A model generated the notes under the pieces. The model saw nothing but the letters and a program-made list of their open reading frames with translations, made no database searches and had not been told where the DNA came from. A stretch of DNA of 64,000 nucleotides. Source: Eledone cirrhosa. Its lineage: Eukaryota. The translations under genes and the position numbers were made by a program. Location of the stretch: NCBI GenBank assembly GCA_964016885.1, contig OZ024761.1:26908001-26972000 (forward strand), in the 5' to 3' direction. Positions 26,061 to 26,481 of this stretch are shown in pieces (the stretch's first letter is position 1; every line of letters begins with the position of its first letter).

Positions 26061-26244
26061 TATATGTACACATATATGTATGCATATACAGAGAGTTATA
26101 TATACATATATATATACACACACACTTATATATACATATACACACGCACTGATATATACATATATATACACACACACTGATATATACATATATACACACA
26201 CACACACTGATATATATATATATATATATAGTTTTAATATAGAT

Positions 26245-26297
26245 GAGATTCTACAGGACTAGAACTGTTTCATTCATTAGAAATCATCAGGAATCTC
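26245..26297 (-). ncRNA. Type I hammerhead ribozyme with a complete core (family D)
   Basis: Minus strand GAGATTC-CTGATGA-TTTCTAATGAAT-GAAA-CAG-TTCTAGTC-CTG-TA-GAATCTC: perfect 7-bp helix I, canonical CUGAUGA and GAAA, 3-bp helix III, and a GUA site. Confidence 0.9.
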
Positions 26298-26339
26298 TGT
26301 GTGTTTCTTTTCAATAGACACAGCACTACACTACAATGT

Positions 26340-26385
<46 letters not shown>

Positions 26386-26481
26386 CACACACACACTGAT
26401 ATATATATATGTTAAAACTGTTATACTCTGCTATGTATTGAGTTACTTACTGTGGTTACCTCCGATTCAACCCGGAATAAC

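What the first reader, a model, noticed from the sequence alone, without database searches (positions are those of the whole stretch)
26231..26410. Intact canonical hammerhead as a 67-bp insertion next to a long direct duplication
Seen: this is the best motif in the window (7-bp helix I, CUGAUGA, GAAA, GUA). The insert begins at the first base of helix I (26297, minus) and ends 14 nt after the ribozyme at (TA)n. About 105 bp of flanking sequence (gtgtttcttttcaatagacacagcactacactacaatgtc...) is duplicated at about 25936-26040 and 26301-26410. The base of helix II is U-U rather than the usual G-C, as in family A. Inference: a young, possibly active ribozyme whose insertion produced an unusually long target duplication. 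It could cleave minus-strand pre-mRNA that crosses it.
Basis: partly seen in the sequence, partly recalled or inferred. Interest (0 to 1): 0.7.

Follow-up and report, generated by a model that had tools for sequence, protein, structure and literature searches.

The report
Two-armed Penelope stub with flank patch
This is a 252-base, two-armed stub of a very abundant Penelope-like jumping gene sitting in a TA repeat; the 'duplication' is neighbouring DNA lying between the two arms, likely copied in when they were joined, and the hammerhead is likely a passenger at the capped front of the element's uncut RNA.

Summary
The hammerhead (minus strand, 26245-26297) and the duplicated stretch are real; the reading is wrong. 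The motif has 3,034 exact copies in this genome. It is the pseudo-LTR hammerhead of a young Penelope-like element with intact RT plus GIY-YIG frames and Hydra-clade motifs. The copy lies between the arms and its source ends 189 bp from the insertion, so it is not a target-site duplication. Sister copies show similar flank patches. Arm 5' ends pile up at the first bases of helix I (30 of 84 and 29 of 58 arms), 30 nt behind TATAAATA, often with an extra G, and rarely at the cleavage site. Best reading: twin cDNAs primed at both ends of a cut (TA)n ran off a capped, uncleaved RNA and were end-joined. U-U at the helix II base is the published Hydra-clade norm. Cleavage is untested. Ordinary locus; moderately interesting mechanism, already noted elsewhere in this scan.

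The parts
26210..26230 (.). Left (TA)n target run; its last base is shared with element position +67
26231..26296 (-). Short arm: element +1..+66 (+1 = A at 26296, first base of native helix I); ends at the family's +67 start site for reverse transcription (inferred)
   Evidence: 67 of 67 identical to intact copy L067; opposite arms end at +60..+67 in 54 of 58
26245..26297 (-). Type I hammerhead motif: 6-bp native helix I (7 with the junction G), CUGAUGA, U-U plus 3-bp helix II, GAAA, 4-bp helix III with 8-nt loop holding CUAG, GUA; predicted cut after 26252
   Evidence: same layout as Hydra-clade motifs in PMC8557442 File S2
26297..26297 (-). Extra G not in the element (long copies have C) and not in the patch source; likely the copied RNA cap or a non-templated base
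26298..26412 (+). 115-bp junction patch: direct copy of flank 25933-26041 with a 6-nt (TA) expansion; last base shared with the long arm
   Evidence: sister patches
25933..26041 (+). Source of the patch in the left flank, ending 189 bp before the insertion
26412..26482 (+).
   Evidence: 4,826 exact tail-plus-TATATA ends in the genome
26483..26532 (.). Right (TA)n target run

Best explanation
The locus is a head-to-head, two-armed stub of a young Penelope-like retroelement with Hydra-clade motifs, inserted in (TA)n, with a copy of nearby flank between the arms; it likely formed when two cDNAs, primed on both ends of a cut TA repeat, ran off the capped 5' end of an uncleaved RNA and were then end-joined. 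Steps: (1) shown: the motif and tail are contiguous with an intact RT plus GIY-YIG frame in long copies. (2) Shown: outer ends fall at +60/+67 and +134, and inner ends pile up at -1..+3. (3) Inferred: Pol II starts at +1 (TATAAATA at -30, CCAGATT initiator-like), so the hammerhead is the first thing on the RNA. (4) Inferred: the endonuclease cuts both strands in (TA)n and RT starts internally just downstream of the hammerhead, so a monomeric transcript gives only 60-135-nt run-off cDNAs ending in an extra C, often followed by A. (5) Inferred: the two 3' ends are joined by microhomology or short templated synthesis; here one end first primed on the left flank and copied 109 nt, by host polymerase theta or by the RT itself. 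(6) Inferred: the hammerhead did not cut the RNA that was copied and is a passenger in this copy.
For: 3,034 exact motif copies, only 1,330 with the 8 upstream element bases. Intact 758-codon frames in L067 and L063, 743 of 758 aa identical, first ATG at +182. In 84 tail-anchored loci the long arm starts at -1..+3 in 30 and +4..+15 in 14; 58 have an opposite arm (3 doubtful), starting at -1..+3 in 29. Base before +1: G 558 (51-nt motif) against A or T 101 (shorter motif); G not explained by the partner arm in 22 of 36 loci. Behind A/T-only flanks: G 46, T 24, C 20, A 10 of the 100 listed of 245 (counted by eye). Junctions with both arms at +1 and 3 bases between: 105, and all 50 listed read C-A/T-G. 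Starts at the cleavage site at most 169. Flank patches in sisters: L020 direct 59 nt (longest match in 30 unrelated loci 28 nt), L050 and L094 inverted 31-32 nt. Literature: two internal RT starts on both strands, uncleaved RNA as template (PMC11167929); extra G from the cap in full-length L1 (PMC11702581); flank-templated inserts in alternative end joining (PMC2895639).
Against: No RNA evidence for the start site or cap: one search offered no RNA raw reads. More arms end at +2 than at +1 (34 against 8 of 142 arms), which needs a second start or trimming. Snap-back of the cDNA on its own helix I predicts the same C and C-A additions at +1, and 58 copies do run on into helix I complement. G is also offered by the partner arm in 14 of 36 loci. 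The locus samples come from the first listed places, mostly contig C1. Long flank patches are rare (5 with a match of 30 nt or more among 159 arms, one of them low-complexity and one the window itself), so the timing of this patch is not shown. No empty allele was seen.
Confidence: 0.7

Rival explanations
1. Same element and arms, but the patch came later: a complete palindromic insertion broke at its centre and was repaired with a copy of nearby flank, losing +1..+59 of the long arm.
For: The long arm lacks almost exactly the part that would pair with the short arm (7-8 bp of overlap remain). Perfect palindromes are fragile (own knowledge).
Against: The short arm keeps its exact +1 end and the extra base. 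Long arms truncated beyond +47 are also found joined directly to a partner arm (L146, L197). Patch and source show no substitution, so both events would be very recent.
Confidence: 0.2
2. Arms stop at helix I because the new cDNA folds back on its own helix I (snap-back), releases the RNA and self-primes for one or two bases; the RNA need not start there and the extra G is not a cap copy.
For: Snap-back predicts C then A, which fits G before +1 and the C-A/T-G junctions equally. 58 copies carry five or more bases of the predicted extension, though a 6-bp microhomology join gives the same. Self-priming was proposed for PLE palindromes in PMC3846280 (passages).
Against: It cannot put G before +2, seen unexplained by the partner in about 11 of 30 loci (by eye). 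In copies with T at +53 it predicts A-G before +1, yet about 6 of 24 T-G cases are not explained by partner or flank (by eye); the matching A-G counts were not obtained, so this test is incomplete. It does not explain TATAAATA at -30.
Confidence: 0.15
3. One reading: a 67-bp ribozyme insertion made a ~105-bp target-site duplication.
For: A near-perfect direct repeat does lie next to the motif.
Against: The repeat is inside the insertion, followed by a second arm; the source ends 189 bp from the left end; both outer junctions are (TA)n as in the family.
Confidence: 0.03
4. A non-autonomous retrozyme made from self-cleaved or circular monomers.
For: Tandem arrays of about 1.07-kb units of this family exist (L068); animal retrozymes derive from pLTRs (bioRxiv 10.64898/2026.07.22.740005, part 1).
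Against: The window copy is not tandem; arms hold the motif uncut and start 45 nt before the cleavage site; starts at the site are at most 169 against about 1,400 at +1/+2 (motif lengths differ).
Confidence: 0.03
5. The patch is an assembly artefact in low-complexity DNA.
For: The region is microsatellite-rich, and one search gave no piece that spans the junction.
Against: The junction falls on the family's exact +1 end with its typical extra base; the copy differs from the source by a (TA)3 length change; sisters have like patches.
Confidence: 0.03

Closest known systems
Hydra clade of C-terminal EN+ Penelope-like elements, incl. Hydra-1_Obim (Craig et al. 2021, PMC8557442; passages, section 11, and part 2 of 59 plus search hits of the supplement seen)
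   Same: Single RT plus C-terminal GIY-YIG frame; DKT, CxCX5C, CxxC and CxH motifs; RWR for RWK; (TA)n target; hammerhead with 4-bp ACAG/CUGU helix III as in several listed families; U-U at the helix II base in 14 of 25 listed families; inverted 5'-truncated partner and one-sided tail.
   Different: Unit is 5,966 bp with a 3.6-kb, mostly simple-repeat 3' region, against under about 3 kb; helix III loop of 8 nt against 1-3 nt; tail about 68-75 nt against 30-40; a different family from Hydra-1_Obim (its hammerhead differs; proteins compared by eye only). The text seen does not describe a 5' hot spot at helix I, an extra G or flank patches.
Poseidon element PAc of Anolis (Frangieh et al. 2024, PMC11167929; parts 1-2 of 4 read)
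   Same: Both strands cut and extended; two internal RT starts that bound the tail; start near a stem-loop; uncleaved RNA used; hammerhead not needed for insertion in vitro.
   Different: Other clade; there the ORF starts inside the hammerhead, here at +182; the parts read do not treat 5' junctions, cap run-off or joining of the two cDNAs.
[quoted passage not shown]
   Same: Motif in the pLTR; most copies single or in close opposite-strand pairs from truncated PLEs; palindromic loop 3; low activity expected.
   Different: They stress a conserved G10.1-C11.1 pair and almost no helix III; here U-U and a 4-bp helix III, so a monomer fold is possible (-8.2 kcal/mol) although a dimer is predicted to be more stable (-21.4 against -11.4 for two monomers).
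LINE-1 5' junctions: cap-derived G, twin priming, templated genomic inserts (PMC11702581; passages read)
   Same: Extra G at full-length 5' ends, inverted two-part insertions, flank-templated pieces.
   Different: In L1 the second primer anneals upstream of the first cDNA on a long RNA; here both arms cover the same first 60-135 nt and both reach the 5' end.
Drosophila virilis Penelope promoter (Schostak et al. 2008, PMC2377424; passages) and Adineta pLTR TATA plus Inr (PMC3846280; passages)
   Same: Pol II promoter in the pLTR; TATA and initiator-like motifs noted in Adineta.
   Different: D. virilis has a TATA-less internal promoter with an intron before the hammerhead; here a TATA box at -30 would put helix I at base 1 and leave run-off stubs without their TATA box.

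Membership tests
Hydra-clade PLE | Single ORF with RT and C-terminal GIY-YIG endonuclease | tested here: met
   758-codon frame, YRDD at 392, YIGMT at 647; Pfam GIY-YIG E 0.019, below its cut-off
Hydra-clade PLE | DKG motif changed to DKT | tested here: met
   DKT at 161
Hydra-clade PLE | N-terminal RWK motif | tested here: met
   RWR at 83, one conservative change
Hydra-clade PLE | CxCX5C linker, and CxxC and CxH in the EN | tested here: met
   CNCLNKEAC at 611; CDLC 711, CPNC 736, CMH 739
Hydra-clade PLE | CCHH motif of other ENs absent; no IFD, no N-terminal CxC | not tested
   No alignment with other clades was made
Hydra-clade PLE | Insertion into (TA)n | tested here: met
   4,826 exact tail ends followed by TATATA; arm ends
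Hydra-clade PLE | Hammerhead in the pLTR | tested here: met
   Motif before the ORF and again 5,966 bp on in L067
Hydra-clade PLE | Generally short (<3 kb); a tendency in the paper, not a criterion | tested here: not met
   Unit 5,966 bp, 3' region 3,643 bp; start to stop codon is 2,323 bp
Hydra-clade PLE | Placement in an RT tree with Hydra families | not tested
   No tree built; by-eye likeness to Hydra-1_Obim only
Type I hammerhead ribozyme | Conserved core CUGANGA, GAAA, NUH and three helices | tested here: met
Type I hammerhead ribozyme | G10.1-C11.1 pair (typical, not universal) | tested here: not met
   U-U; same in 14 of 25 published Hydra-clade families (counted by eye)
Type I hammerhead ribozyme | Self-cleavage | not testable with these tools
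   No assay; no RNA raw reads
Target-site duplication | One copy abutting each outer end of the insertion | tested here: not met
   Copy is internal; source ends 189 bp away
Non-LTR retrozyme | Tandem non-coding units, each with a hammerhead, bounded by cleavage sites | tested here: not met
   Single motif, head-to-head arms, ends at +1 and not +46

The most novel reading that the evidence does not exclude
In this Penelope-like family the hammerhead is the first structure on a capped, TATA-driven RNA; the RT copies that short leader twice, once from each end of a double-strand cut in (TA)n, runs off the cap on both copies, and the two ends are joined, at times after the enzyme jumps onto host flank DNA and copies 100 bases or more. 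This would explain PLE inverted repeats without self-priming or ribozyme cleavage and make PLEs a source of local host-DNA duplications.
Probability: 0.6. Interest if true: 0.6.

Novelty: new member of a known kind. Interest (0 to 1): 0.4.

Why it matters
As a locus it is one of thousands of dead stubs and does not show a long target duplication or a host-acting ribozyme. As a family it gives base-level footprints for two open points named in the papers read: how PLEs make head-to-head structures, and what their hammerhead is for. The footprints say uncleaved, probably capped RNA, two run-off cDNAs and end joining with occasional flank capture. Intact, 98%-identical ORFs make an in vitro test practical. 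I did not find the cap run-off reading in print (searches; subscription journals are mostly not covered), but unreviewed notes of this scan reach it for other families, so it is not new to the scan.

Tried and rejected
Rfam: no hit at gathering score, no hammerhead among weak hits. Folding z-scores near zero say nothing for or against the motif. 3' splice site reading: the element has a pyrimidine run and CAG just before +3, so the extra G could be the end of an upstream exon or leader; rejected because no shared sequence lies before the G in 36 loci. RT stalling on the RNA helix: would stop at the 3' strand near +52, not at +1 (inference). First parser failed on sequence variants and was replaced. 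PDB search of the ORF gave nothing below E 0.08. Protein search gave 1,198 relatives at E 1e-30 among 7,992 scored, nearly all unnamed, and was not used further. Laying X1, X5, X21, X22 showed the family in all four but no piece across the patch, so neither the empty allele nor the junction was tested. The variant test of snap-back has only its T-G counts (24 with T53, 165 with A53) and stays open. No complex or structure prediction was run. Supplements of the bioRxiv preprints and of PMC11167929 and PMC4209133 were not seen and may bear on the claim that the 5' hot spot is undescribed.

Full report
Observation. The minus strand at 26245-26297 reads as a type I hammerhead: helix I, CUGAUGA, a 12-nt helix II region (U opposite U, then 3 bp and a 4-nt loop), GAAA, 4-bp helix III with an 8-nt loop, GUA. 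The predicted cut is after 26252. The fold is weak (z -0.27; hammerhead-type fold -8.2 kcal/mol, probability 0.05) and Rfam does not call it. The duplication is real: 25933-26041 recurs at 26298-26412 with no substitution and a 6-nt (TA) expansion.

The family. The own genome holds 3,034 exact copies of the 51-nt motif, control 0. Long copies continue into an open frame of 758 codons (first ATG at +182) with YRDD, a C-terminal YIG, and RWR, DKT, CxCX5C, CxxC and CxH motifs; two such frames are 743 of 758 aa identical. These are the Hydra-clade marks listed in PMC8557442 (section 11). I built no tree. In L067 two motifs lie 5,966 bp apart and 3,643 bp of the unit follow the stop codon, most of it alternating purine-pyrimidine repeat. 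Numbering below takes the A at the base of native helix I as +1 (window 26296).

Anatomy of the window copy. Plus strand: (TA)n, reverse complement of +66..+1 (26231-26296), one C (26297), the 115-bp copy, element +60..+134 in the opposite direction with a 4-nt deletion (26412-26482), (TA)n. The copy is thus between two head-to-head arms, and its source ends 189 bp before the insertion. A target-site duplication would abut both outer ends; it does not. The seventh pair of helix I is made by the junction base: long copies have C there.

Arm ends across the family. I parsed 84 of the first 100 listed of 4,826 tail-anchored places, all on contig C1; 16 were left out because they were already held in other loci (about 14 long or tandem copies and 2 at +1). 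The long arm starts at -1..+3 in 30 of 84 (about 32 of 100 with the 16), at +4..+15 in 14, before -20 in 20. An opposite arm was found in 58 (L160, L162, L205 doubtful); it starts at -1..+3 in 29 and ends at +60..+67 in 54. Starts at +43..+47, around the cleavage site, number 4 of 142 arms, two of them the same context. Genome-wide, 1,330 of 3,034 keep the 8 upstream bases; about 1,400 begin at +1 or +2 with a foreign base in front (558, 101, 311, 474; motif lengths differ); at most 169 begin at the cleavage site, a count that overlaps the 58 and would include point variants. So the copied RNA was uncleaved. This agrees with PMC11167929 (parts 1-2 read): both strands cut and extended, two internal starts bounding the tail, hammerhead not required.

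The extra G. Before +1, G occurs 558 times and A or T 101 times. In 36 G loci the partner arm supplies the G in 14 and not in 22; of 20 A/T loci, 1 is a variant of a long copy, 7 are explained by the partner, and most of the other 12 abut (TA)n. Behind flanks of only A and T the base is G in 46 of 100 listed (4 from a partner arm), T 24, C 20, A 10. All 50 listed of 105 junctions with both arms at +1 and three bases between read C-A/T-G. TATAAATA begins at -30 and CCAGATT fits the YYANWYY initiator (consensus from own knowledge). In L1 such a G reflects the cap (PMC11702581, passage). Against: snap-back of the cDNA on helix I predicts the same C and C-A; 58 copies run on into that complement; more arms end at +2 than +1. 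For: G also precedes +2, where snap-back predicts A, unexplained in about 11 of 30 loci (by eye), and T53 copies show T-G where snap-back predicts A-G in about 6 of 24 (by eye). The matching A-G counts are missing, so that test is open. A cap-independent taste of the RT for adding C would also fit and would still mean run-off at an RNA 5' end.

The patch. Among 159 arms that start at helix I (loci chosen by several patterns, not a random sample), 28 lack a partner within 12 nt and 5 have a match of 30 nt or more to their own locus right at the junction: the window, L020, L050, L094 and low-complexity L118. L020 has the same layout as the window, a direct 59-nt copy of its left flank between two arms; the same filler matched at most 28 nt in 30 unrelated loci. 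L050 and L094 carry inverted flank copies. Shorter fillers copied from the partner arm are common. This looks like templated insertion in alternative end joining (PMC2895639, passages) or RT template jumping; the data cannot tell which, nor exclude later repair of a broken palindrome.

Activity and host effect. A monomer fold is possible, and a dimer through the CUAG loop is predicted to be more stable (-21.4 against -11.4 kcal/mol); metazoan PLE motifs cleaved poorly in PMC4209133 (parts 1-2) and the Anolis motif needed its protein. The stub has lost the TATA box. No convincing host exon was seen by eye among frames of 90 aa or more in the window or 10 kb either side, and no piece of the element's ORF lies in the window. 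No RNA raw reads were offered. Laying four runs showed the family in all, including two reduced-representation runs of other samples where a helix II loop variant dominates, but no piece across the patch.

Verdict. A new family member of a known kind: a two-armed Hydra-type PLE stub. Structure and 'not a target duplication' about 0.93; cap run-off about 0.7; patch made during insertion about 0.65. I wrote the cap idea down, before the look-ups; unreviewed notes of this scan reach the same reading for other families and are not independent support. Nine literature searches found no paper stating it for PLEs; other papers there were seen as listings only.

Noticed in passing
window 1-433: Degenerate tandem repeats of 71-81 bp that carry the 3' half of this family's hammerhead (77-86% identity, same strand), likely an older relative turned into a minisatellite.
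   Followed up: partly
L067:861-4461 (minus); also L061, L063, L065, L066, L069-L071: The element's 3' region holds about 3 kb of (TA)/(TG)-type repeat; 3 of 10 landmark 14-mers recur in 6-8 of 8 other loci and 5 in none, so the repeat travels with the element and may spread microsatellite DNA.
   Followed up: partly
L068-L069 (G000:C1:83679000-83699999): Tandem array of about 1.07-kb units of this family, each with the hammerhead, closed by an inverted copy; retrozyme-like derivative.
   Followed up: no
window about 20230-20300 (minus): A second CUGANGA...GAAA motif (core at 20287) of another (TA)n-associated family; the same sequence flanks L026 and L056.
   Followed up: no
L003, L004, L006, L021, L051, L083; window about 20479-20823: Another fold-back family often sits in the same (TA)n next to these stubs and shares a short GTACTCAATAC-like motif with the tail.
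   Followed up: no
L008:1200-1500: A run-off arm with the extra G is joined directly to a piece of a different hammerhead-bearing family, a possible jump between RNAs.
   Followed up: partly
window 26276: A helix II loop variant (A for U on the RNA strand) is the majority in runs X21 and X22 and 44 of 304 motifs in my loci: at least two subfamilies.
   Followed up: partly
window 26994-28434: A different dispersed repeat in several partial direct copies (families D12, D14, D16, D17), likely a SINE.
   Followed up: no
window 28764-29125: 83-bp tandem repeat inside a frame that reads like an endonuclease fragment of a LINE (by eye).
   Followed up: no
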